Assembly (NCBI GenBank): GCA_036172245.1
Contig: JAYWIR010000006.1
Coordinates: forward strand, 3,720,001-3,784,000
DNA from: Raillietiella orientalis
Lineage: Eukaryota
Length of the DNA: 64,000 bases
Reading direction: 5' to 3'
This document shows positions 1 through 63,814 of the stretch, piece after piece. The translations under genes and the position numbers were made by a program. The notes beneath the pieces were generated by a model. That model had not been told where the DNA came from, searched no databases, and worked only from the letters and a program-made list of their open reading frames with translations. The first letter of the stretch is position 1; every line of letters begins with the position of its first letter.

Positions 1-507
1 TGCTTCCGCACATGCAGCATAACGAAGAATAAAATCTCGACAACGAGTTGTTTGTCCAGTCTTAACTGTAGAAGTTAAATCTGTTAAGGGCAATCTTAAA
101 AATGGGTTAATATCCATATTTCTGCAACTAATTTACCACGGTTGGGTCTTAAAATACGTCCCGCACGATTACCAGCTGACGGGCAATATAATTATTCATT
201 GAGATGAAACTTGTTTTAACAATTGTAGCGATCGTTATTTCATCGTCCTAACTGGGCTCAACAGGTTCATACAGTTAAATAAACAACTACTTCGATATTG
301 CGCCCACTATTTTCAGAGGTTTTCATCCATGTGGAAACAATTTACAACTTTATCACCTACTTTACTGTAACAGCAAACATCAAACCAATGCTCCAATAAT
401 CGCGCATGGCTTAACCTTGCTGAAAATCAGTAGCAGTCCAGGAAAATAGGAAAACTCTTTCGACTATCTAGTACGAAAAGACAAATAGAACCAAACAAGA
501 AGTACAC

Positions 508-3500
508 TAGGGCGTTGGTGTTCCGCATCTTTGCCCTTCTTATCACGATACTCGTGAAGGGAGCGATGGTAATGCCCACCATGGGAACGGGTATCGGGGA
601 ACGTTCCCGTTCCTTTCAAACATTACCTCCAAGATCCTCATCTTTGTTTTCGCATGCAGGCCGGGCACCACCTTCTGCTTTCTCTAATTTTGATACAGCA
701 TAGGGCAGGTGAGAACGTGAAGCTGGTTTACCTGTCTCCACATGACTTGCAGAGCTCATCTTGGCTGTTGCCTGTCCAATATTTATGTCTGGAGCCACTG
801 AGAATTCCTCCGTGGTAGAACATGAGAACGTCATCCTGAGTGTCCGATAGTAGGTCGCTCCTCCATATCGTTGTGCTAACCACTAGCAGGTTCACATTCC
901 GAATCATCCCATAGCAGTTGGCAGCCTTGCCCAATGAGTCATTTTCTTTTTGCTTGTCCTTCATTTTCTCGCGGATGTTGGCCATGGTAATCAGACACCA
1001 CGTATTGGTTGCCTGATGAGTCTAGAGTTTGTGGGTACTCTGACTGAATCTTCCCGTTATTCTTGTGATGCAGCAGTGCAGTCGCGTTCTGTGACAGCTG
1101 CTACTCTGGACGAAGTGTTCGTAGTCATGGATGGTCATTCTTGGCCTTTGGAATATGCATTTCCAGGTGTTCCAGGAACCTTATAAAGTGCGGGATCACC
1201 ATTACCGGTTCTTTCTGCCACCATTCCTTGATTCGAGGCACGATTTTGAAGCGTTGAGCCATCACCAGTGCCTGCTTGCTCTTCTAGGTGGGGTCGATTT
1301 CCCCCCAGTCTCCATGTTTGCCTATGAGGACTCACGCCAGAACTTTCGACTTGTTGACCAGCTTCGAGTAGGCTCTCTGGCCCCAGTCGTTGATGAGATC
1401 CAGGAGTTGTGACACATCCACGTCGTCCATAGATTGTTGCTGCGATTTCAATCCCGGTCCCCTCTTCCCTCAGGCGCACAAGAGTGTGAGCCTAGCCCGC
1501 AGTTTGAACTTCTACAGAAGCTTCCGCTACATCTGTTCCACTTCCATGCTTGTCTTGTTCATTCGTCAGAAGGCGACCCGAAGAATACCTTCGGAAGGAG
1601 CACGTTGTTCCAAAAGCTAGTCCTCTGCTTCATGGTGAAGTCGATGTGGATGTTTCTTGTTGCTTCCTTTCCGAGTTTTCCCAAGATTTCTTTTCACTGG
1701 ATTGACAGAGCGGATGCAGCCCCGATGTGGATTTTCAGGTACTTGATGTCGTCCACCACTTGGAATCCTGTCTCCATTAATGTGGAGAGGTACAGGGCAG
1801 CAGTTGTGACTTCTGAGCGTTGATCTTCAAGTCCAATCCGTTTTCCATGGACTCGACTACACTGAAGAACGCATGTCGATCCCTCTCACCCTTCAGGAAG
1901 AAGGGAAGATTGTCCGCATACTCCAGGTGAGTGAGTCTCTCGTCGTCAATGACGATGCCTAAGGGGCCGCTTCTGTCGATCAGGGACAACACGGCCTCCA
2001 TGTAGCTCATAATCAGCATATGATTCCCCTTTCCATCTGAATTGCGTCTGTGTCTTCCATCGACTGAATCTTGCATTGCTGGTCTTACAATGTCATGGTG
2101 CTGTACTTGCTGAAGCATCCTGGGTAGCGCAGTTTCCTCAATATCTTCGGCAAAATTCCGTGATCGACGCTGACGAAGGCATTCCCTATAGCGGTGAAGC
2201 CCAGCACCAGGTTGTCGCTGAGGTATCACATGTAAACTGTGATCGCCTGGGCACGCCTCACGCTGTCAGACACGCGGAGTCCGGACAACGCGCATGTCTG
2301 CATTGGAGAGATCGTCGATTGCAACGTCGCACTTAAGCGGTTGACCCGGATCTTTGCTAGTCACTTGGCGCCCGTGTTCAGAATGAAGATTGGCTTCCAA
2401 TGAGTGACCTTCGACAGGTCGCCTCTCTTGGACAGCAGTCGCATCCTGCTTCCCGTGGAACGATTCCGGGAGCTTCCGTTCTTTCTGCACGCGAGGCATG
2501 AGCTCGTGGAACAGGCTTACAAGTAACGCTGATCGTGCGAAGCGATACGCTATCGGGGCCTGCTGCCACATCTTTGTGGAGTTCCGTGAGAGCTCTCTTC
2601 ACTTCATCAATGAACGTTTTCTCTTCCAGCCGTTCTTTCTTCTGGAGAGATAGTCGTTCTTGCAGGAATCGCAAAGAGACATCCTACTCTTCCCTTGACA
2701 GGTTCTGACTTCGGAAGTGGAAGACAGTGATCTTGGAATGTCCTCCACGATAACTTCCGACGTGTGGCGCAACTTGTCTTCGTACTGGATGCAGAAGATG
2801 TTTGTTGGCAAAGTGCGGAGAGAGACATGAATGAGGCGTGCAGGAGGAGAACCTCCTGCACGCCAACTTCTCTTTTGACAGATAGGAAGAACTGCTGTCT
2901 CTTGTACTGATTTCATGACCTCGAGAGGGAGTAGTCTGGGATGTTCGACTCTCACTACGCTTCCTGCCGTATTGCATGTTTGTAAAGAGATGGATTGTGT
3001 TTCAACCGGTTCCAGTCGTCGACTCTGCGGATGATAGTGTCCCGCAGGATCTCCTTGATGAGTTGCCAGTGACCGGGAAACGTGGCACACCATTCGAGCA
3101 TGCAGATGACCACTGTCATGAAGCCACTGTTCCGCCGAGGGTTTTCTATCTTCGAGGTGAACCGCAGCAGTGAGTGATTTGAGAGCAGGGTTTGAGTATC
3201 CCGGAAACCCTGAATGCAGGCCCCTACGTCCTCACTGTACAAAACTTGGTCAATCGGCTTGTGGCTGGTTGTTAGACACTGCAGTCCGAACTCGCCGTAC
3301 TGCGGCCAATACGTCCCTCCTCTAGCCCATGTGTCCTGCGTTGGTCTGCATGTCTTCGGGTGTTCAGGTCTCCCATGTGACGACGATGCGTGACTCTGCT
3401 GCGCAGCAAACATCTGCACGGCTTCCGCGGATCTATGTTTTTCGTAATGTGGCCCGTACACGTGAATCAGGAACAGCTGGACCTGACCAGGACATCAGAA

Positions 3501-3797
3501 CTCCGACGATGCAGTCGGGCCACAAGGAAAAGGACACCAGGACGGTGGACGCCATGTCGTTCTTCACGAGGATAGGCCCTCCTTTCGTCTTCTCTTCCGG
3601 GCTCATGAACAGCTGCTCGTCCAGACGTCCATCCAGTTCGAGGCTGATTTGGTGCCCATCTCGTGGGTTTCCTGCAGACACACGATGTCGTCGCTCTCGA
3701 TGTTCTGTGTGATCCTTTTCTTCTCCTGGATCCACAATCCACTGATGTTCCCGGAAGCGATTTTCGGACTCCTGCTGACGACGGGAAGGAGTTGATC
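508..3797 (-). pseudogene. ORF2 of element A (APE endonuclease + reverse transcriptase + zf-RVT), disrupted
   Basis: Fragments in track ORFs 2955-3461, 2378-2674, 1777-2229 and 728-985 are collinear with, and clearly homologous to, ORF2 of element B. Confidence 0.88.
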
Positions 3798-3804
3798 GGG
3801 ATTT

Positions 3805-5250
3805 GAAGGAGAAAGCTCCTAATCTTCTTTTTCTTCTTGGGAGGAGTCGATTGGTTGCTCCCAGCAGATTTTTCATCCGCGATGTTACTCCCAAACTCCT
3901 CAAAGTCGGATGTTTCTTCGTTATCCTTCTCCCGGACTAGACGGGCAGCACTGGTTCCTCTCCGGGAGTAAGGTAAGTCGAACCAGCTCAACTATTTTGT
4001 CTTTTGTCATGTCCAGCATGTGCTCAGCTTGCATCCGCATCTTCCCGTTCACTATTGTTTTTACGATTTCGTCGTGAAGCGCGAAGATGCGGAACCGAAC
4101 CTTTTTCCGCTTTATCCGGACGAGAAGCTTTTACGAGTATGGCCAATTCTTGCTCATACTCGGACGTTATGCTTATGCTTCTCCTCTTCGGTCGCGACGC
4201 TTTCCGCCGCCGCTACTAGAGGAGAAGTTTTTCCCCTACTTGCTGCGCCCTCTTGTGTTTGTTCTTCTTCTTTGGCTGGGCTTCTGGGAGACCTGGGTTA
4301 GTGGCGGCTCTAAGGAGCTCCACTTTTTTTTTGTTCTGCTCCTCTTGTTCCTTCGACAACAGTGCAGGCAGAGGAGTCAACTCCTGCGCCACAAGACACG
4401 CCGGGTACTTCTGGCATTCACGCTTAACGTGCTTCGATATTTTGCAGCGGTACCACTACGGAGGCCTCGTGCAATCTCGAATAAAGTGGCCCTATTGGCC
4501 CCACTTGAAACAACGTGCCTCCTGCTAAACGCTAAGCCTGTGTTCGAACTGCTTGCAGCCCGTGCAAAACATGCAAGAGATATCAGACCTGCACGTGTTG
4601 GGACTGCTGGTCGATGAACACTACCCCTGGGATTTTGGCATCGTCGAATAGCTCGATGCGGACCACGGCTTCTCCGACGATCTTCTTCATGTGGTTTCGA
4701 AACACAACCTTTTGAACTTCGCCGCACTGGGGGGAAAATTCCCACACGTCTTCCTGGTCGGAGAAGCCGTGCACACCGGTCAGGTAGGGTGTTGTGGCAA
4801 AGAGTTCTCCCACGCCACGCAAATGCCTCCCATCTAATATAATGCCCTGTTATATGAGACCTCTTTCAGTTCTTCGTGCGCGATGTAAACCGCGAAGCCG
4901 ATCGCGGACGGAACGATGACCTCAATCAATTTGAAATCCACATATTTACTGTGGAGCACGACGTGGACGTCTTTCACGTTGGATAGATACATCATCCCCA
5001 TCTTGAGGATCTGCTTTACTCCAGGGTCAGTGTCCGTACCAGTTTCTTGACCCGGGAAATTTCGAACATGGCGAACTTCGTCGACCTCGCCATTGTCTCC
5101 ACAGCTGCCTTCAGCATTGTTGGCTGCAACTCTGCTTCCTTCGCGTAAGACAAGAGCGGCGGCAGCGGTGTTGCCATAGCTGGCGCGGTTACATCCTTGG
5201 AGGCAGTTGGCTGGAACACTTCCACTGGTGGGGGAGGTGGAGCCATGCAG
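3805..5250 (-). pseudogene. ORF1 (gag-like nucleic-acid-binding protein) of element A, disrupted
   Basis: N-terminal Pro/Ala-rich stretch with LSYA; RRM-like segment (GEVQKVVF...GEAVVRIEL...IPGVVFID); degenerate knuckles CTGCKQFEH and CFKWGQ*GHFIRDC near 4470-4575; basic C-terminus PPKKKKK just before ORF2. Confidence 0.75.
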
Positions 5251-5391
5251 TGTCCTGTTCATCGAGGGAGTACCTTCAATTGTTTCTCCTCCAAACTACA
5301 GGCAGTCCAGGGAGAGTCCGGAGCAATGGGGATACTGTCCAAGGGAAAGAAATGTTCACACACTTCAGAACTGTCCTTTTTCACTTTTTTG

Positions 5392-5555
5392 CAGGAGTCC
5401 GCGCGAAAGCATTCTCTCAACCTAAAAATTATATTTCTTAGTAACCTACGTTGGGGGTTATCGCAGAGATCAGTCCAATCTCCGTGCAATGATCGAGCCT
5501 CACTCTGGAGGAATTTTCACCATGACCAAGATTGTCCCCATTTCCGACAAGCGGT
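5392..5555 (-). ncRNA. U1 snRNA-derived sequence (variant or pseudogene) forming the 5' head of element A
   Basis: Minus strand reads ...CCTCCAGAGTGAGGCTCGATCATTGCAC...CTGATCTCTGCGATAACCCC...ATAATTTTTAGG...GCTTTCGCGC...CCTG. It has the U1 stem-loop II with the ATTGCAC loop, SL III, an Sm site, a terminal TTCG-type SL IV remnant, and a span of 164 nt. The canonical 5' ACTTACCTG is not preserved. Confidence 0.85.
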
Positions 5556-5992
5556 GGGGTGAATTTATTAAACCAACAAAAGTCCTTACTCACTAATCAT
5601 GTACATTCACAATTTCACACTGTTTCTTGTCTTTGGAGTTCAATGCTTCTCCTCTTATACTATCTTTTCACTTTAGTTTTCGGGAGGTTAGGGGGCGGAG
5701 GGGTTCGTCCTTTGTGCCTGGGAGTACTCGTCCATCTTCATCAGGATGTAACGGTACTTCCAGGCGGCGATCCTGCCGCAGCTCCTGATCCCGATTTCCT
5801 TCCGAACAAGGCCACTGAGGATGTCCCAAGCCGGCAATTGTCGTCGCAGGGTATACATCTTAGCCCTTCTTATCACAATAGCTGTGATGAAGAGGGCCAG
5901 CGTAGTCAAAACCATCGGGTTGTAGAGGGGAACAACTCCTCTCCCCTGATACAATCCCCACAGGATCTCCATTACAGTCTTCCTCTGCAGGC

Positions 5993-6008
5993 ACGTCACC
6001 GCCTTCAC
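5993..6008. repeat. Left 16-bp target-site duplication ACGTCACCGCCTTCAC
   Basis: Identical to 6938-6953. Confidence 0.95.
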
Positions 6009-6937
6009 AAAACATTAGGAGCAGCAACGAGAGGGCAACGTGGGAAGTGTCCTGCCTCATCCGAGGCAGGAGAAAACCTTTAAAGGCGTGGACGACTCGG
6101 GAGCTAACGGACGCTGCCACCCCGAGCGTCCCGCCTCACGGACTTGCGCGCTGGGGAGAGCTGCTCGCAATACCTCCGGAGGAGATGAAGTGGCCCCCAG
6201 CGTGTTGGGATATCGGCACCCTTCCGTTAAAGTGGCAGGAGACGACGTTGCTATTTCTGCACTGGGAACTGTTAAGCAGAGCACACCTGTCTCACTGGAA
6301 ACTGGGGAATGTGGATGCCCGCTGTGTCGAGTGTGGTGAAAGGGAAACCTTCCAGCATCTCACCCTCGAGTGTGTCGCCCTGGTTGGACTCTGGAGTCGA
6401 ATCGCCCCAATCCTCCATCTTCCAGTAGGCGACCCAAAGGAAATTTACCGCCGCCTCTTTCTGCGTGACGGCCTGCGCCCCGCAGCGTCTCTAGCAGTCC
6501 TCTGCTGCGTGCGCGGCATCGTGCAAAGGTGGCACGCGAGAAGAAGAGGCCCAAGATGCAGGGACGCCATCCACTGGACGACGATCTCTTTGGAGACGGT
6601 GACAAGATGGCGTCTACCTCCAACGATAAAAGATGAACTTGACTGCATCCTGAATAGGAAGCGGAGGACCGACCCAGGCGCCCAGTGATCCCTTCCCTGC
6701 CCCCCACTCCCCCATATAACTGTTTCCCTCCCCATTATTTCTCTTTTTGTTTCTTTTTGTTCCAGTTTCCCCTTCCCCGCGCCTCGGGAAAGGACCTAGC
6801 CGGTGTCGGCACCGGCTCCCGACACGTCTGCCAGCGTAGGAAAACCAAGAGTTTTCCCACAAAAACATATGATTGACTTTATTAACTAATTTAATATTAA
6901 TTAGATTAATGAATGCCCCGGCATATCCGGGTGACAA
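6009..6937 (+). mobile_element. 5'-truncated non-LTR retrotransposon (ORF2 C-terminus with zf-RVT plus 3' UTR), inserted antisense into element B
   Basis: Flanked by exact 16-bp direct repeats. The frame is open from about 6011 to the stop at 6688 and encodes CVECGERETFQHLTLEC...W. A pyrimidine-rich, hairpin-containing 3' UTR follows. Confidence 0.9.
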
Positions 6938-6953
6938 ACGTCACCGCCTTCAC
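6938..6953. repeat. Right 16-bp target-site duplication ACGTCACCGCCTTCAC
   Basis: Identical to 5993-6008. Confidence 0.95.
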
Positions 6954-9900
6954 CGCGTTCCAATCAGGTCGCAGCGTGGGGCAGGTGAGTACGTGGAGTT
7001 GAGTTTCCACTTCTCCACACGCCCTGCAGAATCCGTCATGCTGTCTCCCGGTCCAGTGCCTCAGTCTGGAACCACTCAGAATGCCTCCGTCGTAGAACAA
7101 CAGGAGGTCGTCCTGAGTGTCCGGGGGTAGGTCACTCCTCGTGAGTGCAGCCCCACGGCCAGCACATTGGCATGCGCCGGGCCGTAGCGGCTCGAGGCTG
7201 CGTTGAGGGCATCAGGGTCTTGGTGCTTCTTCGAGGTTTCCACCCTGATGCTATCTTTGGTCATGAGCAGCCACGACTGATTCGGCTGCTCCTTCCAAAG
7301 TTCCCGAGTGCGATGATGAAGGAACCCCGCAAGGTCGTGGTCAGGCGATGCAGTCTCAGTTAGTGCCTGCTGGCACTTTTAGCGAACTGCTCGCACCGTC
7401 GAATGTTAAGTCTTGGCCTTTGGTTCAACCAATTCACTGTCTCCCGTGGGATTGGGATAAAGCGAGGTATCACCATGGGCAGTTCTTCATCACAGATTTC
7501 GCAGCTCCGAGGCACGATTTTGAGCCCTTGGGTTCTCACCAGTGCCTGCTTGCGCTTCCATGTAGGGTCGATGCAAAGCCACTGTTCAGTGGCGCCTATG
7601 AGCGCTGACATCAGGCCCCTCGAGCTGTTCAACAGCTTGGAGTACGCCCGGTGCGCTGCATAGGGCCAGTCTTCCCAACTTCTGGTGAGATCCAGGAGTT
7701 GCGCGCATCCATGCTCTCCACGGAGTGTTGCAGCAGCTTCATCCCGGTCCCACTGTGCTCGCGAGGGCGGCACAGAAGTTTCAGCCGAACTCTGGGTCGA
7801 TATTCCCGCCAAAGGATCTTCCTCTGTAACCTCTCCAGTTCCGCCTTTGTCTTCTTGTCGATTCAGCAGAAGACCGCTCCGTAGAACTCGGACTACCTTG
7901 GGAAGGAGAACTCCATTTCACAAGGCAGCCCTCCGCTTCATGTTGAAGTCGACGCGGGTGTACTTGGTGGCTTCATCGGTGACCTTACCCAGGATCTCCT
8001 GCCACAGGCAGCGAGACGCGGTCTCGTCGCCTAAGCGGATTCCCAGGTATTTGACGGTGTCTGCCTCTCGGAATCCGGCCTCTTGCAGTGCGGAGAGGTC
8101 CATGATCCCGATTGGCAGCAGGTGGCTCTTCTGGATGTTGATTTTGAGTCCGAAACCTTTCTTCATCTGCTTGATCACACCTCGGAATGCTTCTTGATCT
8201 CGTTCGTCCTTCAGGAAGAACAGCAGATCGTCCGCCTACGCAAGGTGGGTCAGCTGTTGGCCGTGGATTCGGATTCCTTGGAGGTGGCTGCCCCGATCTA
8301 CAATCGCGGACACCACCTCCATGTAGAGCACGAACAGCATCGGGCCCAGGGCGTCGCCTTGGCGAACACCCCTTTCCATCCGAATTGCTGCCGTCTCCAG
8401 CCCGTTCACCTTGATCTTCACATGTTGTTCTCTCAAGGTTCATTCCAGGTAGTGCATGAAGAAGCTTGGGAAGCCCAGTTTCCTAAAGATCTTCAGCAGC
8501 ATCTCGTGGTCCACGGTGTCGAACGCCTTCTCCATATCCGTGAGCCCTAGAACCAGGTCTTCGCCTACGTATCGGCAATAACCGATGGTGGCCAGGGCGC
8601 ACTTCACATTCGCAGACATGCTTCATCCGGGCACCGCGCATGTCTGCTTGGGAGACACGACGGATGGCATCGCCATGCTTAAGCGGTTGGCCCAAATCTT
8701 GGTCAGCCACTTGGCATCCGTGTTGAGGATGGTGATCGGCCGCCATTGGGTGACTTCCAGGAGGTCGCCCCCCTTTGGCAGCAGTTTCATCCTTCCCTCG
8801 TGGAACGATGCAGAGAGTCTTCCTTCTTCCTGGATGGCGATTGTCAGTTCGTGGAACAAGCGAACGTAGGCGTGCAGGTACCGCCGATAGTGCGTGATGG
8901 GAACACTATCGGGTCCTGCCGCCACATCCTTGAGCAGTCCAGCGAATGCACTCTTGATTTCCTCAGGGGAGATCTTCTCTTCCAACTTCTCATGGTGTTC
9001 CTTCTTAACTCGCGGGTGCAGGTACCGCAGGATGTTCGCTTGTTCCGTCGGGCACAGATAACGCCGTCGGAATTGGGAGGCGTAATGGTGGTGGAAGGCC
9101 TCCGCGATGCCTTCCGACGTGTGCCTGACTTCGTCTGCGTGCCGGATGGAGAAGACGTCGCTGACGATGTTTTTCCTTTCCAGCACTCCAACTTCCCCTT
9201 TTACAGTCTTGAAGACGTACCGGTTCTCGTACTGGGGCCAGTATTTCGAGAGCGAGCGATCTTGCTGTCGTTCCAGCTCACGGTACGCTTCCGACCTCAT
9301 CTTTCTGTCGCCGAACTGCATGTTGCTAAACAAATGGATTGTCCGCTTCAACCTGTCCCAGTCGGTGACCCTGCGAATGGTGGTGTTGCGCAGGATCGCC
9401 TCGATCAAATCCTGGTGACAGGGATGCGTCTCGAACCATGCGGGCATGCATACTAATGCAGCCCGCGCGCCTTTCTTCCTTCGGGGGTTCTCCGTTTTCA
9501 ACGTGAATCGCAGCAAGGGATGATTCGAGAGTACGGATGGAGGCTCTCGGAAGCCCTGCACACGAATCGCGATGTCCTCGCTGAACAGGACGTGGTCGAT
9601 CGGCTTGCTGCTGGCGGTCAGCCATTGCAGGCCGAACTCGTCCGACAGCCACCGATAGGCCATTCTTCCCCGTGCATCTTTGGTCTGGGTGATGTTTTCC
9701 AGGATGTTGAAATCTCCCACGACGATCACGATGTCCTTTGCCGAGGCCTTGCTGCGTAGCAGAACCTGTACGGCCTCCACGCAGCGATGTTTGCCTCGGT
9801 GCGACCCCTACATGGTCACCAGGAACAGATGAACGTTTCCGGACCAGGACGTGCCTACTCCGACGATGCGGCCGGGACAAGGTGAAAAGGTTTCTAGGAT

Positions 9901-10164
9901 GGTGTGTGCGATCTCGTTTTTCACGAGAATCGCCACGCCTTTGGTCCTTTTGTGGCCCGGGCTCAGGAACAGCTGGGCGTCTAGTCGTCGTTCCAGCTCT
10001 GGGATGGTCCGATGTTCGAGCTCGTGGGTTACCTGAAGGCAGATGTGGTCACGCTCGATGGTCCGTGTGACCATCCGTCTCTTCTTCTGGTTCCGCAATC
10101 CATTCACGTTCCAGGAGATGATGTTGACGCTCCTGGCAGTCGACAGGAAGGTGGCCATCGGGGA

Positions 10165-10949
10165 TTAGTTGGAGGATCTGCTCTTCCTCTTGCTCCTCGT
10201 CTTCTTGGGGGACGTTGTCGTCCTCCTCTCTTCTCCATGCTGGTCACCCAAGTCACTTTCGGACCCGATATAGTCGGTGCTGTCGGCGACCGAGTGCCTC
10301 GTTTCGTTGTTAACGCTTTGCGGAATTGCATAAGGCAGCTCCTCAAGCTCCCAGCTGGCGTAGCGCTGTTTGATTTCCAGCATCCTGCTTTCCAATTCGA
10401 AGCGTTTGGCCTCGTCTGGAACGCGCTCGTTGATGGAAATCTCCACCCGGCAGATGCCTTCCAAAGTTTCCGCTCTTGCTTCCCTGGTTACTGCTTCCTG
10501 CACCATTTTCTGTACTTCTGCTACTTCTGCTGTCACGTTGGCAACTTCCGCCAACTCTGCAGCTGCTACTCCCACCACTTCCTTGGCTGGCTCGGCAACT
10601 TCCGCCGGCGCTTCCACTGTAGGTTGTGGTGCTGTCTTTCTTTTCCCCTTGGTGGGCTTCTTTTTCACTTCAGTGGGTTCTGCCGCCTTCCTGGCAGTCA
10701 GCTCGGCCGAAGGAGCCTTCTTTTTCTCTGCTGTTTCCACTTCTGGTTCCACCTGTAGTGGTGGCAACCTGTAGTGGCGGCTGCATTCGAATTGTAAGAT
10801 GGCGCCGCCGCTGCTGCCGCTGCGTACGACGACGGGTGGGTCGCTACGGGCGTCGCCGCGGCCGTTGAGACGGACGCCGCTCCCGCGCGCGCTGCATGCG
10901 GGCCTTCCGCCGATGCCGACGCAGGAGTGGAGACGTCCATCGCTTCCAT
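10165..10949 (-). pseudogene. ORF1 of element B, apparently internally deleted
   Basis: The N-terminal MEAMDVS...SSYAAAAAAAP frame joins out of frame near 10760 to an Ala/Glu/Lys-rich C-terminal frame ending KRKSRSSN* just before the ORF2 ATG. The RRM/knuckle core seen in element A is absent. Confidence 0.7.
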
Positions 10950-11094
10950 GTTCCCCCGGCGGGGCGAGTCCACTCTGGCAATGTCCTCCTCCGCACTCTG
11001 GGTTGTCGGGGAAAGTCCACTGTCTGTACGGGAAACAACACTTCTCACTCCACACTCAAAAACACTCTTTTATTCGAAACTTTATTCGAAACTC

Positions 11095-11241
11095 CGCAGT
11101 CTTCCAGCCTAAAAATTATGCTTCCGAGTAACCCAAGTTTGGGGTTATCGCAGAGGTCAGCCCTATCGCAGTGCAATGATCGAGCCTCACTCTGGAGGGA
11201 TCTCCACCATGACCAAGATCGGCTCGAATCCAGATATTTAT
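11095..11241 (-). ncRNA. U1 snRNA-derived sequence (variant or pseudogene) forming the 5' head of element B
   Basis: Minus strand begins ATAAATATCTGG (canonical U1 ATACTTACCTGG). It continues with a GATCT/AGATC stem I, CCTCCAGAGTGAGGCTCGATCATTGCAC, CTGACCTCTGCGA, SL III, GCATAATTTTTAG (Sm site) and GACTGCG, then loses similarity at the SL IV loop. Confidence 0.87.
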
Positions 11242-12350
11242 TTCAGCAAACAACAATGTGAAACTATGAAATTTTTTCAATCAACAATTCGATTTATAAA
11301 CCATAGAGATCCTTTTGTTTAGTTACTCTGCTTTTGAATTTTATTAGAGCCGATAGTTTCCAGTCATAGTTCCACTCTTCCAATCTGTTACAAAAGTGAG
11401 CAACTATGATTCCTACTCTGGCCTACTCTTCAATTGTGTCTTTTAACGGGAAACACTAATCATTTAATAAGTATTTAAGTAATTAATGTTTTTAGAACTT
11501 TCCGTTACTCATTCTAAATTTTCCAAGTTAAAAGTTGAAAGGAAGGCATAAAAACAAATCATTCATTCAAAAAAGCATTATTGAACAAGGCTTTTTCCTC
11601 CAAATTCATTTTCTTAATGGCCTTTCTTCGGAATTTAAAGCAGAAACATTTTCAAGATTTGGAGATTTGGGGGGGGGGGGGGTTAAACTACAAAAGTCAT
11701 GAGTCAGTCTTTACATGCATTTTGTATTTCCAATTCCCGAAGTTTTGTCATCGTTTAATTTTTATATGGATTTTCCCTTGGATCCATGGTTCTTGAATGA
11801 TAATATTTCTGAAATGTGGCAAAATTGCGGAAAACTTTTGTTTCGATCATTTTTTCAAAAATGCGTGCGCGTTATTTGGCACTCGGCAGCGCTCATTTCA
11901 AATAAATGCGCTGCGCGTTTTCGTTGTTAGACGTTTACGTATTTGTCATCTTGGAAACACGTAAGTTTCGAATAAGTTCTCGATAAGATTAAAGTGAGAA
12001 GGAAATCAGAAAACAAAGTTGGAATGCAGTCTGTTAGATCTCAATTTGATCCTTAAATGAGAGATCGTGGTATTTAAACTGTTCTACATCGCTGTGAAGC
12101 AATTAATTCCATGAATTAAAAATACATGAATGGAGAGGAAAACCATTTCATTATAGTTTTCAATTAATGTTTTCCTTGAGTTTTTAGGTATGCTTCCTTC
12201 ATTATGCATGGAATTGCCACATAGCTCAAAGTGTTAATCAATGTTATGTAGAATTTACAGTTTTTCATAAGAACTTTAGGGTTTTGAAGAATAATGCATT
12301 TTTAAGGCTCATCATAACAGCTCGATCTGAAATACTATATTGTAGAAAAC

Positions 12351-14852
12351 ATGTCCCCAAACAAAGGTTCTGCCACATCTTTGGGATTGAATAAAGCAAT
12401 CAAAACTCCTGGAAAGGGAATGAAACATCAATCTGAAAAGTAATTTGCCAGAAAGTTAAAACTGCTACATCTTGCATTGTAAAAATTCAGTAGGGTCAAA
12501 AGAATCCCAAGTGGCTATTTTTCCAAGAAGAATGTGAAAGCTTGCACTCCTTTATCTGAGTCAAACCATCAATATGGTGTGTGCAGTGAATATTCCATAA
12601 CACATGCAAAAAAAGAAATTAAAAGCTGTAGTACCCCAAAAAGTAGTAAGAGGTAAGTTTCAGAGCATTGGTGTTTCACTGGGGTTACACTGCTTAGTCA
12701 ATTAAAAAAGAATTCAATAAACCTTATATTTAGCCATAAGTATCATATATTTAATTGTAAATTAATGTGCAGGATAATTTCGCTTTGAAGTGATATGTTC
12801 ATTTTGGTTTCATGCAATTTTCCTTGATGCTTAACATATTCATTTCTTCTAAAAGGAAAGCTGGAATACTTCATGCAGGAAATCCATGTAAAAGTTATGA
12901 GTTAAATTATAAGATAAGAAAACCAAATGCACAATTAGCACCTACAATAGCTACTGAAAATGTGAAGGCTGATCAAGTAGGTGAAGTGGGGGGATGATCT
13001 CTGGAATCATGGAAAACATTTTTATTTAGAAAATGCAAGTTAAAAAGCTGAGTAAACTCACAACCTCTAAAGAAAGTGAGGAGTTAGTCACATTTCAAGG
13101 AGCACCAGATCATGATCAGCAGATGGTTAGTGTATAGGGTGTAATATACGATTTGTGATTTGTTGCAAACAGAATGATGGAATGTGCATCAATGCAGAAT
13201 TTGAAAATGGTGCTCAACTGGGTACTGCTTATAGTCCATGTTCACTGGATTCTTTGAAAATGTTTCAAGCAAGCAAGGAGCACTCACAAAAGTAGTTTCT
13301 CAAATCAAGTATTTCTTGCATTCCACAATTCTTTTCAAGTGTTCGTAATTTTGGGGGTTTATTCATATTTTGATCTATTTCCTTTGTTTCTGCTGAATTG
13401 CAGTATGACACTTGTATTTGTTTATTCTCCCCTAGAACCAGCGAAGAACTAAAAAGTATTCTGGATGATTTGATTCATCAACAAAAACAAATGCATACGC
13501 TACCACTAGCCAGTGAGCATGAGGTCATGGTGCATAAGTATAAGAGTGTAACTAATTCCTTGGTGCAGTTGATTTTAAAATCAAATCTGCATCTCATTTC
13601 ATTGACACAGGTCAGTATTGGATTAAAGTGAGAATAAAATCAGAAAACAATGCTGGAGTGCAATCTGTCAGACAAAGAAGTATGCATTTCATTTGATGCT
13701 TCCAGGAAATCTTTAATATGTCTGAAGCAAAGAAACAGCAATGTCTGAACATTGCATCAGAATGGGAAACCACAAAATTGCTCAGATCTCATTCGGAATC
13801 AAAAAATAAGGAAAATCGAGAAACAAATTGCAGTAGTAGCAGTTTGCAAAGCCTTGTGCCAAAAACTCATGATCAATGCAAACGGCAAGAACAGGACTTA
13901 AAAGGTGAAATAGCTGCCTTGAAGCAGGAGATAGAGGAATTGATTTCCAAACATGAAAAAGAGGTTGATCAAAAGATAAAGACTCTGTTTTAATAAGCAA
14001 TCATTAGACCCAAGAATGGAGCCAATTCAAAAAAGACTTGTTGACTACTGTTCAGGCTGCAAATAAGAATCAACAAGAAGAAGAAGAAAAGGTAAAACAT
14101 TTAGAGGCCAAAATTAAGAGCTTGCAAGAGGCTCAAATGCAGGAACCTAAAGATGGAGGCAATGCAACACCAATGAAACAAGATTCACCACATAAAGGTT
14201 TGAGAATTTAGATTTAATTAGTTTCATGCATGTATTTGTCAAATTTCTTTGGAAGAGGCAATATGATTTTTACTACCAAAGTAATTACCCAGTTCATAAT
14301 CATTATTGTTAGTTCCAGAAAATAAAATTTTATACATCTAACTGATAAGTCTTAGATACTGATATTTATTAATTAGATGCTATTCTCTTCCAGGCTGCAA
14401 AGACTCGATTGTCTCTGACAGTGATTCTGATAATGCTCTACTTACTTGGGTTCAAGAAAAACTAGTGGGTTACAAGGTTACAGTAAAGGATTTCAGCAGT
14501 GGTTGGAATGATGGTCTAGCCTTATGTGCACTTCTGCACTCTTGTTTTTCTGGAACAGTTTCAGAAATTCTTCTCCATAAACCAAATCTGCAATCAGCAT
14601 TGGCTATTACAAATAGCTTGGGTATTATGGTGTGTATGCTCATGAGTAAATATCTTCCTCACAAGATTTTAGGATCAAAAAGATACAATGGCGTTCGATC
14701 AAAGAAATATCAAGACATATGTTGGAACTATTCATAAATATTTTCACAATTTAGAGAACCAGAACTTGCATGCCCAAGCTGATAGGTCAAAAATGAAACA
14801 AAAGGCACTTGAGGAAATTTCTCTGCAGGGTGACTGCAAAACAAAAAATTAA
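12351..14852 (+). CDS. Cytospin/SPECC1-like coiled-coil + C-terminal calponin-homology protein, multi-exon; 5' exons uncertain
   Basis: A coiled-coil exon (~13707-13963) splices over a 44-nt intron to [19 protein letters not shown], resembling the SPECC1-family EWxQFQxDL..V..AN motif. The CH exon reads [37 protein letters not shown]. The last exon reads ...[12 protein letters not shown]... with TAA at 14850-14852. The ATG at 12351 is tentative. Confidence 0.7.
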
Positions 14853-17800
14853 ATTATTCTAGGATGTATTCGAAGTTTGCTTTTCAAATCTTAAGGATGT
14901 TTAAGTCTAAATGAAATATATCCCTTTATATGATTATAATCTACATAAATACATGTGTGTAGTAATGATTTGATGTGTATGTGTATGGATATAGGCACAT
15001 CATAAGACAATGATCTGATGAAGTTTTGGTCTGTCTCACTTGATTGCTTCCACATCCCCTGTGGTAGGGCTGTTAATCACCAAAATGAGATAGTACCTAA
15101 TAAAATGCATGCTTCCAATTTTGCAGGGTTTTACCAGAATTCAGTCACATGTCTGCTGAGCAGCATTTTGTTCCTCTATATTTGTTGCAGAAAATATTGT
15201 TCTGACACTGAAGTTCTTTGGAATGTCAATTAATAAAATTACTTCAGAGTTGAGAAATTAGGGTACAAATTCAATTTGAATGTTCATTGAAATTGAACAT
15301 ATTTGGTCAAGAATTAGCAATATAAGTTTTCCATTTATCGCTGATTGAAGAATTGTAACGTTCATCTTTCACCTTTTTCCTCAATCTAAAACTCAAGCAG
15401 ATGTCATAAAAACGATTTTTTTTGTTGGTTGAAAATGCAATTGGTTGACACTGCAACAATATTTTATTGGCAGTTTTGTTTAGAGAATGCAGCTCTTGAC
15501 CTTAATTCAAAGCAATGAGCTTGTTCGACAAAATAATGCATTTATTATAGAAATTTGCTAAGAGGACCATGTATCCTGCAAGCATCAGTAACCATTCAAA
15601 CTTAACTTACGCACAGCCCAGATTTCGATGCAGCAGATTCACATTCCTTCAGCTGCCCTGACGCAGTCAGTGTTTAAAATGGTATACGACAGAGAAGGGC
15701 TATCATAGCTTCTAAAGGAGAAACAGAAAGTAAGGAAAGAAGGCTCACAAAATTATGCAAAGGTGTCTCCAAAGACTTGTGCAGATGAGAAGTGAGGAAC
15801 ATCTAAATGTCAGAAGAAACGTGTGATATCGGTAAAACGAGGGAGCACCAACCTGAATGACGACTTGGAGGCTACCCAACGAAGGCCCCATTACGTGCAA
15901 CGTACTCAAAAACTTCACTCGAAGGCAATCGCTTGTCATTTCCAAGCTCAACTGGAGAGCCAACTTCAAGGTGTTTCGCGCGATAATTTCAGAGCTCCCA
16001 CAAATTTGTGGAGACTGCGGCATCTGCAAGCTTTCTATCATCCACTATAAAAAATTTATAAATCAAGTGATAAGTGGTTAAATTAATTGTGAAAGCTTCG
16101 GTCTTGTGCCATGCGAACTTGCTGTGAAGCACGTTTCCTCTAATGTTGTTTCTTCCTTCTTAAGGTCATCAAGAGTTCTTTTCGATTTCTGCTTTTTACG
16201 CATGACCACAAACGAATGATTTCGTCGATTTTTCATCTGTCTTCAAAAAAGCTGAATTTTGAAGACAAAGGGATAAAAAATGCATGAGACCTTGAGAATA
16301 TACATAAAAAACTTTTTCCGATGTGACTTTTTCTGGGAAATCGCTTCTTTTCCCAACTTTATATGCAACTTTCAGATAGCATTCACATTATAAATATAAG
16401 TCACTAATAATCTTCATTCCACTGCAATGTGCGCCAGCAGATATACTTCTTATTTGTTGCTCAATTGAGATGTAATAAAGGACTAATGATCTAATAAATG
16501 ATCCGAGAATGGAAAGCTGATATTATGTAATAATTCCTATGATTTCATAGATGGCGTCTCTTTTAAGCCGAACTATGTGCGAGTTTCGTATGCAGCAACA
16601 TCTCTGAGTATCCCTCAAAATCATGGACTAATACAATTTCCAGTTAATAAATTATGTTTTAAACTAATTTACTCAATAAAAGAAGATCAAGCTAAAAACT
16701 TTCAGACTGATAATCTGGAAAATATTTGATCATATTTCATTCTTATCATCTCATACATTTGCAGTTTTTCAGAAAAGCGGGCTGTGAAGTATGGGGGAAA
16801 AAATACATACTTAGGAGAGTTGCTTTGTATAATTTACAGGAATCTGTAATCATATCGGGTGTCCGCTAACAAGGACTAATAACAACTTTCCATAGTCACA
16901 AATGCATTGGAAATTACGGTGTCAAGCTATACTGCATCTTTGTAGTAGCTTGTGGAAAGTTTCTTCCCATGTGTTTCCTCACCCCAAAGTTGAATTCCCA
17001 GAAATATAAAATGAGAATTTGTGAGATATACTACATAAGCGAATGTTTGTTTTGAAGCATTAAGTAATTACACTATAAGGAACAAGTCATAAATAAATAA
17101 GGACTACATTCAAATGTATGAGTCTTCATCATTTTATGTCTTACGTCTACGTACGATTCAGTAATATGACCATTATTTAAGAATAATTATGAGCCTATTT
17201 TTCCGGGAAAATCAGTTTCTGAATCCGAATTTCCAAGTCAGTTTCCTCTCGAGAGCATTATGTTCTGATACTTTTTTTCAGAGACACTTATGCAAATTTC
17301 AACTTTGCTCAACAATGCAAAACAAGCAACCATTTTAGTCTTAATTGAACAAAAGCAGCACTGTACATGAGCAGCAAATGTTGTAATCAACTTATAATAA
17401 TCGAAAACATTGGTAGGTTTGTAAAGAAAAAAAATCAAGTGTACTTTTACAAGTACACTTGTACAAGTGCAATATTGTACTTGCACAAGTGCAATATTGC
17501 AATGCTGTCGCATTGCAATATTCCTATATCGATAAGATGCAATCAATCGGATAAAAAGAATGATATCAAGTTGATTTTCCGATCATAACAACCAGAGGAT
17601 GATATCGGTGAATGGTAAGGTAGATAAACTATAAAATAAAGAAATTTCAAGTTTTCAAAATTGAATAGCATTCGAAGACAAGATTATCACATCCATTTAG
17701 GTAACTGATAAAGAAATAAAGCAAAAAATATCCTTGTAAATACCAGTATGCTTCCTTCTGTGTTTCTGTAAAACGATGATTCGAATTTTAGCTAACATTG

Positions 17801-37300: not shown

Positions 37301-38828
37301 CCGTCAGCCGCTACCTGTCGCGGCACAGGGGCAGCGCCTGCGGCGACTCGGACGACAGCAGTCCTCGCAGCAGTGTCGCCGCCGCTGCCCCCTCCTACAC
37401 GAGCCGTTTTTTAAACCGGTCGAAGAGCTCTGCCGCGATCGCCGAGGTGGAGGACCGCCTGGCGAAGAGCAAGGCGGCGGAGGACTGCTGGCAGCCGCCA
37501 GGTAGATCGAGATACGGGTCCCTGAAGGAGCGCAGGTCTCGATTCGCCCGCAGCAAGAGCTCGGCCGAGATGATGGAGAACGACGAGAACGACCAGGAGC
37601 AGGCGGGGGAGCCCGGGGCGGCCGCTCCTCCCCTTTCCTCTCACAGGAGGGGGAGCGGGGAGGACCCCCTCGACCCCAAGGACGCGGTCACGTCGTGGGC
37701 GAGCTACCTCAAGAGCAGATACGGGGGGGGGAGGTGCGCCGTCGGCAGGAGCCACAGCTCCGCGGCGCTGCGCTCCTCTCAGGAGATGAGCTCGGACGAT
37801 AACACCTCGGACGGCGAGGACGGCGGCCCTCCCGGCGCCTCGGTGCCCTGCAACCACTCCCAGTACCTGGCCAAGAAGAAGATGCTGTTCAAGTTCGGGG
37901 GAAGAGGCAGCGAGCGGGGCCACTTCACGTGGCCCCGGGGCATCGCGGTCGGACCGAAAGACCGCATCGTCGTTGCCGACTCCAGCAACCACCGCGTGCA
38001 GGTCTTCAGCCCGGACGGCACCTTCATCAAGGAGTTCGGCTCCTACGGGACTGGGGAAGGGGAGTTCGACTGCCTGGCCGGGGTCACCGTCAACCGTATC
38101 GGCCAGTACATCATCGCCGATCGGTACAACCACCGCATCCAGATCTTCGACCCTTCGGGCCGCTTCCTGCGGACCTTCGGCTGCCAGGGGAGCACCGACG
38201 GCAAGTTCAACTACCCCTGGGGGCTGGCCACCGACAGCCTTGGGTTCATCTACGTCTGCGACAAGGAGAACCACCGCGTGCAGGTCGGTCGGTCCCTCGC
38301 TCCGGCGCGCGCGCCCCCAGCTGACCGACTGCCTCCGGCCGCAGGTCTTCCAGTCCGACGGGACCTTCGTTGGGAAGTTCGGCACCTTCGGGAACGGAAT
38401 CGGACAGCTGGAGCACCCCCACTACATCGCCATCAGCAACGCCAACAGGGTCATCGTGTCGGATTCCAGCAACCACCGCATCCAGATCTTCGACGTCAAC
38501 GGGCAGCTGCTGTTCACCGTCGGCAGGGAGGGCTCGGACGAAGGGCAGTTCAAGTTTCCGAGGTATGCGCGCCGCCCTGCCACCAGCGCCCCCTCGAAAG
38601 GGCGTCCCTTGCAGGGGGATCGCCGTCGACGATGCCGGCTACATCATCGTGGGCGACGCCGGCAACAACCGAATCCAGATCTTCTCCTCCGATGGGCAGT
38701 TCGTCCGGTGCTTCGGCACATGGGGCAACGCCGACGGGGAGTTCAAGGGACTCGAAGGAGTGGCGGTCAACTCGTCCGGAAACGTCTTCGTGTGCGACCG
38801 CGAGAACCACCGCATCCAGATGTTCTGA
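34330..38828 (+). CDS. tn: TRIM-NHL E3 ligase (RING, B-box, coiled coil, long Ser/Glu-rich linker, NHL repeats), thin/abba/nhl-1 type; exons 34330-38283, 38345-38562, 38615-38828; 1461 aa
   Basis: The N-terminus [34 protein letters not shown]...LQRFLELHIEITGELPDPT matches Drosophila thin/abba as I recall it. NHL repeats include FTWPRGIAV...DSSNHRVQVF. Two short GT-AG introns join the three frames; total 4386 nt. Probable 5'UTR intron at 34105-34297. Confidence 0.93.

Positions 38829-45153: not shown

Positions 45154-63814
<18,661 letters not shown>

What the first reader, a model, noticed from the sequence alone, without database searches (positions are those of the whole stretch)
11095..11241. 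Selective retention of U1 modules: U1A loop and Sm site kept, splice-site arm and 70K loop changed
Seen: both heads keep ATTGCAC (loop II) inside an identical 28-nt block, and both keep ATAATTTTTAG (Sm site). Both replace the conserved loop I GATCACGAAG with GGTCATGGTG. The 5' ACTTACCTG is eroded (AAATATCTG in B, barely recognisable in A). Known: loop II binds U1A, loop I binds U1-70K, the Sm ring drives cap trimethylation and nuclear import, and U1A can inhibit polyadenylation. Inference: the shared loop I change predates the split of A and B. A splicing-dead U1 mimic could recruit Sm/U1A to stabilise the retrotransposon RNA, import it into the nucleus or prevent premature polyadenylation.
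Basis: partly seen in the sequence, partly recalled or inferred. Interest (0 to 1): 0.8.

Follow-up and report, generated by a model that had tools for sequence, protein, structure and literature searches.

The report
U1 snRNA-derived heads on LINE retrotransposons
Two decayed jumping genes in an arthropod genome each begin with a copy of the spliceosomal U1 RNA, an unusual arrangement, but two copies cannot show that parts of it were kept or discarded by selection.

Summary
Two U1 snRNA-like sequences lie on the minus strand: B at 11241..11085 (Rfam U1, 83.9 bits, above the cut-off) and A at 5554..5392 (53.3 bits, E 1.9e-10). Each is fused at its 3' end, at the same junction, to the 5' UTR of a broken LINE with endonuclease and reverse-transcriptase domains. 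Both share loop II AUUGCAC, the Sm heptad and the odd loop I GGUCAUGGUG.

The main new fact is a contrast in conservation. The U1 core is 97 of 113 identical with no indels. The LINE bodies are 64% identical and the 5' UTRs much less.

The differences between the heads look like neutral GC-to-AT decay of the older copy A. There is one double change among 36 pairs, and the 28-nt identical block is not significant (p 0.12).

My best reading is that a U1 sequence was captured by reverse-transcriptase template switching and is now carried as the element's leader. The nearest knowns are crocodilian SINEU and U6/L1 chimeras.

I could not reach the host's own U1: no genome is held, no sequencing runs were listed, and 0 matches came from four collection scans. 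So the claim that loop I changed after capture stays open, and Sm/U1A recruitment is untested.

The parts
11085..11241 (-). Head B: complete U1 snRNA-derived sequence (157 nt), the first bases of LINE copy B
   Evidence: Rfam U1 83.9 bits, E 2.7e-19, model 1-166. 31 of 36 pairs of helix H and stem-loops 1-3 are standard pairs. GC falls to 25% directly beyond 11241.
5392..5554 (-). Head A: U1 snRNA-derived sequence (163 nt), more decayed, the first bases of LINE copy A
   Evidence: Rfam U1 53.3 bits, E 1.9e-10, below the gathering score. 27 of 36 pairs, plus 7 of 10 in stem-loop 4.
11205..11214 (-). Loop I of head B, GGUCAUGGUG. The same word is in head A at 5518-5527.
   Evidence: Exact in both heads. 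6 of 10 match the Rfam consensus. It holds an AUG that opens a 7-codon uORF in both heads.
11171..11198 (-). 28-nt stretch identical in both heads (A: 5484-5511): end of stem-loop 1, 5' strand of stem-loop 2 and loop II AUUGCAC (B 11171-11177, A 5484-5490)
   Evidence: A run of this length is not significant (p 0.119).
11109..11119 (-). Sm site region AUAAUUUUUAG of head B (A: 5422-5432)
   Evidence: Exact in both heads. The first seven bases of the nonamer are as in U4. The eighth is A where U1 and U4 have G.
11069..11092 (-). Perfect 12-nt tandem duplication across the 3' end of head B
   Evidence: Both 12-mers are identical. Together with a missing loop, this explains the poor alignment of stem-loop 4.
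10950..11084 (-). 5' UTR of LINE B between the U1 part and the first ATG (A: about 5263-5391)
   Evidence: Homologous between A and B: alignment score 18 against a shuffle maximum of 7 (0 of 300 shuffles reach it). Only 88 matches in 162 alignment columns.
5555..10949 (-). Body of LINE B: ORF1, endonuclease, reverse transcriptase, CCHC region, 3' UTR. It is broken by in-frame stops and frameshifts. Its last base abuts the first base of head A.
   Evidence: Pfam Exo_endo_phos and RVT_1, all below the curated cut-offs. Human L1 ORF2p is the only PDB match (5.5e-15).
384..5262 (-). Body of LINE A, more broken and more AT-rich. Its 3' end is not defined (somewhere in 380-520).
   Evidence: tblastn of B pieces gives 36-64% amino-acid identity. 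blastn gives 64.3% over 3276 columns. GC is 0.51 against 0.57 for B.
5906..6688 (+). Fragment of another LINE (C-terminal zinc-knuckle region) nested in the 3' part of B in the opposite direction. It accounts for about 0.9 kb that A lacks.
   Evidence: Pfam zf-RVT E 7.6e-6, 26.9 bits, just under the cut-off of 27.5. tblastn match of B's own CCHC piece on the plus strand at 6221-6412.

Best explanation
Two old, broken copies of two related but well-diverged LINE retrotransposons lie head to tail on the minus strand of an arthropod genome. They are of the endonuclease plus reverse-transcriptase type and probably L1/Tx1-like.

Each starts with a whole U1 snRNA sequence. The mature 3' end of that U1 is joined, at the same point in both copies, to the LINE's own 5' UTR.

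Most likely the LINE reverse transcriptase reached the 5' end of LINE RNA and jumped onto a U1 RNA. That is how U6/L1 chimeras and the U1/U2 heads of crocodilian SINEU arise. The chimera then became a source copy, so the U1 sequence is now the first 160 nt of the element's RNA and is inherited with it.

The head is not a working U1: its splice-site arm and loop I are altered.

What is shown: the fusion, the common junction, the shared odd loop I, and a U1 core far better conserved than any other part of the two elements.

What is inferred: the template switch, the inheritance of the head, and any role. My estimates are:
- About 0.25-0.3 that the head is preserved because it acts in cis as the element's 5' leader, defining or driving the start of full-length transcripts.
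- About 0.12-0.15 that it recruits Sm or U1A proteins.
- About 0.15 that it is simply re-copied from one host source.
For: Two U1 matches lead two LINE copies. Head A runs to the end of the U1 model and is followed at once by the 5' UTR. That UTR is homologous in A and B (0 of 300 shuffles reach the score). Once B's 12-nt duplication and loop deletion are allowed for, the junction is the same in both.

The element boundary coincides with U1 nt 1. GC drops from about 50% to 25% beyond 11241, and the two upstream regions are not alike.

The U1 core is 97 of 113 identical with no indel. The bodies are 64.3% identical over 3276 columns (p 6e-7) and the 5' UTRs give 88 matches in 162 columns (p 3e-8). 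Matches per 30 columns are 27, 25, 24 and 21 in the core. They are 10-14, with one window of 20, from the junction through the 5' UTR.

Both heads share the same 4 departures from the Rfam loop I consensus.

Precedent: recurrent addition of U1 or U2 sequence to the 5' ends of SINEU by a Tx1-type LINE machinery (Kojima 2015, PMC4494074, abstract and passages).
Against: Only two copies could be seen.

The host's own U1 is unknown, so the shared loop I may be the host's. The heads may then be fresh copies of host U1 made at each insertion.

Heads that were nearly identical at insertion, on bodies only 64% alike, fit re-copying from one slowly evolving source at least as well as inheritance.

No target-site duplication supports the boundaries. 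The best candidate, 12 of 13 bases at 11244-11256 and 371-383, is reached by 65 of 500 shuffles.

U1 genes have no known internal promoter. How a head would be transcribed after insertion is unexplained, and the same question is left open for SINEU (Kojima 2015, section read).

B's 3' end sits exactly on A's first base, which a random second insertion does not predict.

Free-energy folds of the heads do not recover the U1 fold (z 0.01 and -1.10).
Confidence: 0.5

Rival explanations
1. The heads are not inherited. The reverse transcriptase of these LINEs often ends reverse transcription by jumping onto a host U1 or U1-variant RNA. Each head is then a fresh retrocopy of that RNA, and the odd loop I and Sm eighth base belong to the host RNA.
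For: The heads seem to have been nearly identical at insertion while the bodies are 64% alike. Of the 16 core differences, 12 are G/C in B and A/T in A, as expected from decay after insertion. End-to-end jumps give the same junction every time. Recurrent 5' addition of U1 is documented for SINEU-2 (26 copies; Kojima 2015, passages).
Against: Both full-length copies in the window have a head, 2 of 2, which needs a very high jump frequency. Loop I and nt 1-10 are conserved positions of U1 (Rfam consensus; Kondo 2015 passages), so a host U1 with 4 loop changes is unlikely. B differs from the consensus at 3 of the first 10 nt although its core is well kept.
Confidence: 0.15
2. The LINEs are target-specific for U1 genes or U1 sequences, as Keno and Utopia are for U2, and are co-transcribed from the U1 promoter. 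The heads are then target genes or homology arms rather than cargo.
For: Tx1-group LINEs include families that target U2, U5 and 5S genes (Kojima 2015, figure legend; Utopia paper, listing only). B's 3' end lies exactly at the first bases of A's U1. The younger, better-kept copy B has the complete head, and the older A has lost its 5' arm. Co-transcription would explain how a head without an internal promoter is inherited (argument in Kojima 2015).
Against: Neither element interrupts a U1. B is followed by a whole head, not by a U1 3' part or 3' flank. No U1 follows A (only 2 U1 matches at E up to 1 in the window). The two upstream regions share nothing significant. Upstream of B is 25-30% GC DNA. 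I saw no T-C-N-C core of the insect PSEA near -55 (read by eye against Hernandez 2007, PMC1761439, passages; the host's own element is unknown). Clade membership in Tx1 is not established.
Confidence: 0.12
3. One reading: the head is a selected, splicing-dead U1 mimic. Its Sm site and loop II recruit the Sm ring and U1A to stabilise the LINE RNA, import it into the nucleus or restrain polyadenylation. The 5' arm and the U1-70K loop were discarded.
For: Loop II matches 9 of 9 (B) and 8 of 9 (A) conserved consensus positions, and the Sm heptad is intact in both. Loop I is changed at 4 of 10 positions, including C33, which U1-70K embraces (Kondo 2015, passages). The core is much better conserved than the flanks.
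Against: There is no covariation: 1 double change in 36 pairs, and 6 pairs are broken in A only. Intact short motifs are expected by chance at 86% identity, as the 28-nt run shows (p 0.12). The eighth Sm base is changed. Stem-loop 4 next to the Sm site is damaged in B. From my own knowledge, not tested here: a trimethylated cap would hinder translation of the LINE ORFs, and U1A blocks polyadenylation near the 3' end, not from a 5' leader.
Confidence: 0.12
4. The head has been turned into the element's internal core promoter. The loop I change created a downstream-promoter-element-like word at +28 to +34 from U1 nt 1, so RNA polymerase II restarts at the first base of the head, as in insect LINEs.
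For: GGTCATG occupies head nt 28-34 in both copies. Insect LINEs (jockey, Doc, G, I, F, SART1, TRAS1) carry such an element with core CGTG about +28 to +32 from the start (PMC4748587, passages). Against the 7-base form RGWCGTG (recalled, not from a call), the heads match 6 of 7 and the Rfam consensus loop 4 of 7. The host is an arthropod. Conservation looks like sequence blocks, not pairs. Any inherited head needs a start at nt 1.
Against: The idea came after seeing the sequence. My rough estimate of such a match arising by chance is about 0.04, before allowing for other motifs I might have noticed. There is no initiator-like word at nt 1-4. Two of the four loop changes lie outside the element. 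The CGTG core itself is matched only 3 of 4 (CATG).
Confidence: 0.08

Closest known systems
SINEU (crocodilian SINEs with U1- or U2-derived heads; Kojima 2015, PMC4494074)
   Same: A U1-derived sequence forms the 5' head of a retroposed element. It is thought to have been added by template switching of a LINE reverse transcriptase of the L1/Tx1 kind. The same question is open in both cases: how a head without an internal promoter is transcribed.
   Different: SINEU elements are short and non-autonomous and were described from reptiles. Here the head leads full-length autonomous LINEs with ORF1, endonuclease and reverse transcriptase, in an arthropod, and is shared by two diverged LINE lineages.
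U6/L1 and other snRNA/L1 chimeric retrocopies (as cited in Kojima 2015; Doucet 2015, PMC4476161, listing only)
   Same: A full-length snRNA is joined by its 3' end to LINE sequence in the same direction, made at the RNA level.
   Different: Those chimeras are one-off dead products, each with a differently 5'-truncated L1 part. Here both LINE parts are full length with one common junction and shared derived changes in the head, which suggests a propagating lineage.
snRNA-gene-targeting LINEs (Keno and Utopia in U2 genes; Tx1 families in U5 and 5S genes)
   Same: LINE and snRNA sequence are physically associated, and co-transcription from an snRNA promoter is possible.
   Different: Those elements split the target gene, with snRNA sequence on both sides. 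Here a whole U1 precedes each LINE, and no U1 part follows as a target remnant.
Canonical U1 snRNA gene (Rfam RF00003)
   Same: Overall fold, loop II, Sm heptad and length.
   Different: The 5' splice-site arm and loop I are altered. No promoter or 3' box was recognised. The U1 runs directly into a LINE 5' UTR.

Membership tests
U1 spliceosomal snRNA (RF00003), functional gene | Covariance-model score at or above Rfam's gathering score | tested here: inconclusive
   B scores 83.9 bits against a cut-off of 69.5 (met). A scores 53.3 bits (not met; E 1.9e-10).
U1 spliceosomal snRNA (RF00003), functional gene | Invariant 5' single-stranded arm, nt 1-10, that pairs with 5' splice sites | tested here: not met
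   B matches 7 of 10 and A 4 of 10 positions of the Rfam consensus. Invariance from yeast to human is stated in Kondo 2015 (passage).
U1 spliceosomal snRNA (RF00003), functional gene | Loop I sequence bound by U1-70K | tested here: not met
   6 of 10 match the consensus in both heads. The changes are at nt 29, 33, 35 and 36.
U1 spliceosomal snRNA (RF00003), functional gene | Loop II AUUGCAC and the Sm site | tested here: met
   The loop II heptamer is exact in both heads. The Sm heptad AAUUUUU is intact, and the eighth base is A instead of G.
U1 spliceosomal snRNA (RF00003), functional gene | Upstream snRNA promoter (PSE) and 3' box | tested here: inconclusive
   The two upstream regions show no similarity to each other. 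LINE 5' UTR stands in place of a 3' flank. The host's promoter element is unknown.
SINEU | 5' head derived from U1 or U2 snRNA | tested here: met
SINEU | Short, non-autonomous element without coding capacity | tested here: not met
   Each head is followed by 5-kb LINE bodies with endonuclease and reverse-transcriptase remains.
snRNA/LINE template-switch chimeras (U6/L1 type) | Complete snRNA joined at its mature 3' end to LINE sequence in the same direction | tested here: met
   Head A reaches model position 166 and is followed directly by the 5' UTR. B is the same once its duplication is allowed for.
snRNA/LINE template-switch chimeras (U6/L1 type) | Independent one-off events with variable LINE breakpoints, flanked by target-site duplications | tested here: not met
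   Both copies have the same junction and full-length LINE parts. The candidate duplication is not significant.
snRNA-gene-targeting LINEs (Keno/Utopia/Tx1 group) | The element interrupts the snRNA gene, so that target sequence flanks it on both sides at one fixed site | tested here: not met
   B is followed by a whole second head, and A by no U1 at all. Only two loci were seen.
APE-type LINE of the L1/Tx1 superfamily | Apurinic-type endonuclease, reverse transcriptase and C-terminal CCHC motif in ORF2 | tested here: inconclusive
   Pfam Exo_endo_phos scores 22.6 and 17.1 bits and RVT_1 scores 22.5 and 16.6 bits, all under the cut-offs. Human L1 ORF2p is the only PDB family matched (5.5e-15). 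A CCHC word is read in ORF 6906-7211. No phylogeny was made and the clade is not resolved.

The most novel reading that the evidence does not exclude
The U1 head is a domesticated, selected 5' module of an autonomous LINE lineage. It has been kept almost unchanged in two lineages whose reverse-transcriptase genes have drifted to 64% nucleotide identity. It has been stripped of its splicing parts. It is used either to load the Sm ring (snRNP-style cap modification and nuclear import of the LINE RNP) or, after loop I was remodelled into a downstream promoter element, as the internal promoter that restarts transcription at U1 nt 1.
Probability: 0.2. Interest if true: 0.8.

Novelty: new variant of a known kind. 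Interest (0 to 1): 0.5.

Why it matters
snRNA-derived heads are known for dead chimeric retrocopies and for one group of reptile SINEs. In five full-text searches I found no report of an autonomous LINE that carries a whole U1 as its leader.

If the head is inherited and constrained, two things follow. It would be a natural case of a retrotransposon borrowing part of the snRNP pathway or building a promoter out of an snRNA. It would also give a handle on the open question of how snRNA-headed retroposons are transcribed.

If instead the heads are fresh copies of a host U1 variant, the locus records a very jump-prone reverse transcriptase and an unusual host U1. The host genome assembly alone would decide between these.

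Tried and rejected
- Whole genome of the window: none is held, so the host's U1 genes and other family copies could not be searched.
- Sequencing runs for 5300-11500: none was listed, and no RNA holder was listed. No reads could therefore be laid.
- Collection scans for exact words of the head found nothing: metagenome contigs 0 and 0, prokaryote genome contigs 0, viral contigs 0.
- Protein routes to relatives gave little. The word-indexed search found 1 protein (37% identity). The exhaustive search found 4852 proteins at E up to 0.001, but none above 41% identity among the best 150, so there is no close family member whose 5' end could be inspected.
- Earlier notes of this scan hold nothing on this genome or on U1-headed LINEs.
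- Single-sequence folding does not recover the U1 fold. I rejected it as uninformative and counted pairs on the Rfam structure instead.
- I considered whether another element's 3' end lies upstream of B, which would suggest a tandem array. Rejected: the alignment score is 36 against a shuffle mean of 31.4, sd 5.5.
- Target-site duplication: the best candidate is not significant.
- ORF1 of B: no Pfam family and no usable Atlas hit.
- I considered a single multi-jump insertion event that would have made B and A together. A's greater decay speaks against it: 12 of 16 core differences are AT in A, and body GC is 0.51 against 0.57. It is not excluded, since A could have been copied from an already old source.
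- The literature search for the loop I word found nothing about U1 among the 10 of 166 papers listed.

Full report
**What is there.** Rfam's covariance models find exactly two U1 snRNA matches in the 64-kb window, both on the minus strand.
- Head B lies at 11241..11085. It scores 83.9 bits against a gathering score of 69.5, with E 2.7e-19 over model positions 1-166.
- Head A lies at 5554..5392. It scores 53.3 bits, below the gathering score, with E 1.9e-10.

- The Sm-region word is exact in both heads.
- The loop I word is exact in both, with one further unrelated exact match at 13523-13532.
- The loop II heptamer lies inside a 28-nt stretch without any difference between the heads.

Against the Rfam consensus printed:
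- Loop I matches 6 of 10 positions in both heads, and 3 of the 4 mismatches are at conserved positions.
- U1 nt 1-10 match 7 of 10 in B and 4 of 10 in A.

**Surroundings.** Each head is followed by about 130-145 nt of untranslated sequence and then a LINE body.
- Pfam gives weak Exo_endo_phos and RVT_1 matches. All four are below the curated cut-offs, as expected for frameshifted remains.
- The 394-aa piece of B matches only human LINE-1 ORF2p among solved structures (best E 5.5e-15, 5 distinct chains).
- A CCHC word is readable near the C-terminus.
- Both copies are dead. The ORF pieces change frame several times and are interrupted by stops.

B also holds about 0.9 kb that A lacks. This is a fragment of another LINE in the opposite direction.

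The host is an arthropod. A Mi-2 exon at 52.8-53.5 kb is 80-84% identical to insect and decapod Mi-2. The window also carries a RING-NHL gene.

The LINE has no close relative in the libraries. The exhaustive search gave 4852 proteins at E up to 0.001, but the best 150 are only 24-41% identical. The few named ones come from a sea turtle and a deep-sea fish.

**Anatomy of the two 5' ends.**
- The boundary of B coincides with U1 nt 1. GC falls from about 50% to 25% directly beyond 11241.
- The DNA upstream of B does not resemble the DNA upstream of A (score 36 against a shuffle mean of 31.4, sd 5.5).
- The DNA upstream of A is the 3' UTR of B, so B's last base abuts A's first base.
- Head A runs to the last position of the U1 model and is followed at once by the 5' UTR.
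- In B the same region carries a perfect 12-nt tandem duplication (11069-11092) and lacks the loop of stem-loop 4. Allowing for these, the junction between the U1 3' end and the LINE 5' UTR is the same in both copies.
- The 5' UTRs are homologous (score 18; 0 of 300 shuffles reach it).

The U1 sequence therefore belongs to the element, or at least to the unit that was inserted. In its present state it is not a U1 gene.

**The main quantitative result.**
- The U1 core, from the top of stem-loop 1 to the Sm site, is 97 of 113 identical with no indel.
- The bodies are 64.3% identical over 3276 aligned columns.
- The bodies are 36-64% identical at the protein level, piece by piece.
- The 5' UTRs give 88 matches in 162 alignment columns.
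- The core is significantly better conserved than either (Fisher p 6e-7 and 3e-8).
- Matches per 30 columns are 27, 25, 24 and 21 across the core. From the junction through the 5' UTR they are 10-14, with one window of 20.
- The first 22 nt of the heads match only 9 of 22 (p 2e-5 against the core).

Differences are therefore not evenly spread over the head.

**Is this selection on RNA modules?** Here the evidence is weak.
- On the Rfam U1 structure, B keeps 31 of 36 pairs. A keeps 27 of 36, plus 7 of 10 in stem-loop 4.
- Of the 36 pairs, 15 differ between the heads.
  - In 6, B pairs and A does not.
  - In 2, A pairs and B does not.
  - In 3, neither pairs.
  - In 3, a one-sided change keeps the pair.
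  - Only 1 is a double change, G-C to A-U. That is also what two GC-to-AT transitions give.
- Of the 16 core differences, 10 are transitions. In 12, B has G or C and A has A or T, against 3 the other way.
- A's body is also more AT-rich (0.51 against 0.57 GC) and more fragmented.

A therefore looks like an older copy decaying towards the 33% GC of its surroundings. The two heads were probably almost identical when inserted.

The 28-nt identical run is within chance (p 0.119). At 86% identity, intact 7-nt and 11-nt motifs are unremarkable.

The Sm site is only partly canonical. Kondo et al. 2015 (PMC4383343, passages) give the nonamer for U1 and for U4. The heads have the first seven bases of the U4 form but A instead of G at the eighth.

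The same paper shows U1-70K contacting loop nt 28-37, with C33 and G34 embraced. The heads differ at nt 29, 33, 35 and 36.

**What it most likely is.** A complete snRNA joined by its mature 3' end to the 5' end of a LINE is the signature of reverse-transcriptase template switching. This is known from U6/L1 chimeras and from crocodilian SINEU. In SINEU, U1 or U2 sequence was added to the 5' ends repeatedly by a Tx1-type machinery (Kojima 2015, PMC4494074: abstract, passages and the transcription section).

My best reading (0.5) is that such a chimera became a source copy and that the head is now inherited as the element's leader.

The puzzle is that near-identical heads sit on bodies that are far apart. 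Either the core is under strong constraint, or both lineages drew the head from one slowly evolving source. Such a source could be a host U1 variant (0.15) or U1 genes used as targets and promoters (0.12).

The exact abutment of the younger B on the first base of the older A hints at targeting or at end-to-end template jumps. One case proves nothing.

I noticed a second reading. An inherited head requires transcription to start at U1 nt 1. In both heads nt 28-34 read GGTCATG. That resembles the downstream promoter element of insect LINEs, whose core CGTG lies about +28 to +32 (PMC4748587, passages). The match is 6 of 7 to a recalled 7-base consensus, RGWCGTG, against 4 of 7 for the consensus U1 loop. 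This idea came after seeing the sequence, and I give it 0.08.

The same loop change also creates an AUG that opens a 7-codon upstream ORF in both heads.

**What could not be done.** The decisive check is loop I of the host's own U1.
- No genome is held.
- No sequencing run was listed.
- Four collection scans found nothing.

Covariation analysis needs many copies, and only two exist in the window.

**Literature.** Five searches of open PMC papers and bioRxiv found no paper describing an autonomous LINE with a U1 head. Subscription journals and Repbase reports are not covered, and no supplementary files were consulted.

**Verdict.** The finding is a real and unusual structure, a new variant of the known snRNA-headed retroposons. 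The claim of module-by-module selective retention is not established, and the proposed mechanism is untested.

Noticed in passing
window 5555/5554: The 3' end of LINE B, which has no poly(A) and carries an AATAAA word about 15 nt before the end, abuts the first base of head A exactly. This could mean targeting of U1 5' ends, or an end-to-end template jump.
   Followed up: partly
window 11210..11187 and 5523..5500 (minus strand): The altered loop I contains an AUG that opens a 7-codon upstream ORF ending at the same UGA in both heads (MVEIPPE and MVKIPPE).
   Followed up: partly
window 11069-11092: A perfect 12-nt tandem duplication spans the 3' end of head B.
   Followed up: yes
window 5906-6688 (+): A fragment of a different LINE (zf-RVT-like C-terminal region) is nested in reverse direction in the 3' part of B.
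   Followed up: partly
window 11244-11256 and 371-383: A 12 of 13 match lies two bases upstream of head B and again just past the last recognisable part of A. It is a possible target-site duplication around the whole B+A tandem, but it is not significant (65 of 500 shuffles).
   Followed up: yes
window about 34350-39250 (+): A RING plus NHL-repeat (TRIM-NHL type) gene has coding DNA of 65-70% GC, in a window whose non-coding DNA is 31-35% GC. This is a striking compositional contrast.
   Followed up: partly
window 48120-53459 (-): Exons of a Mi-2/CHD3-4 type chromatin remodeller, 80-84% identical to insect and decapod proteins. They place the host among arthropods.
   Followed up: partly
window 16401-16548: Sub-threshold Rfam matches on opposite strands: snoR31 (29.6 bits against 44) and mir-205 (26 bits against 55). 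Probably chance.
   Followed up: no
window 11668-11683: A run of about 15 G in AT-rich DNA upstream of head B.
   Followed up: no
window 13523-13532: A third exact copy of the 10-nt loop I word lies on the other strand, outside any U1 match. With up to 1 mismatch the word occurs 11 times in the window, against 3 expected.
   Followed up: no
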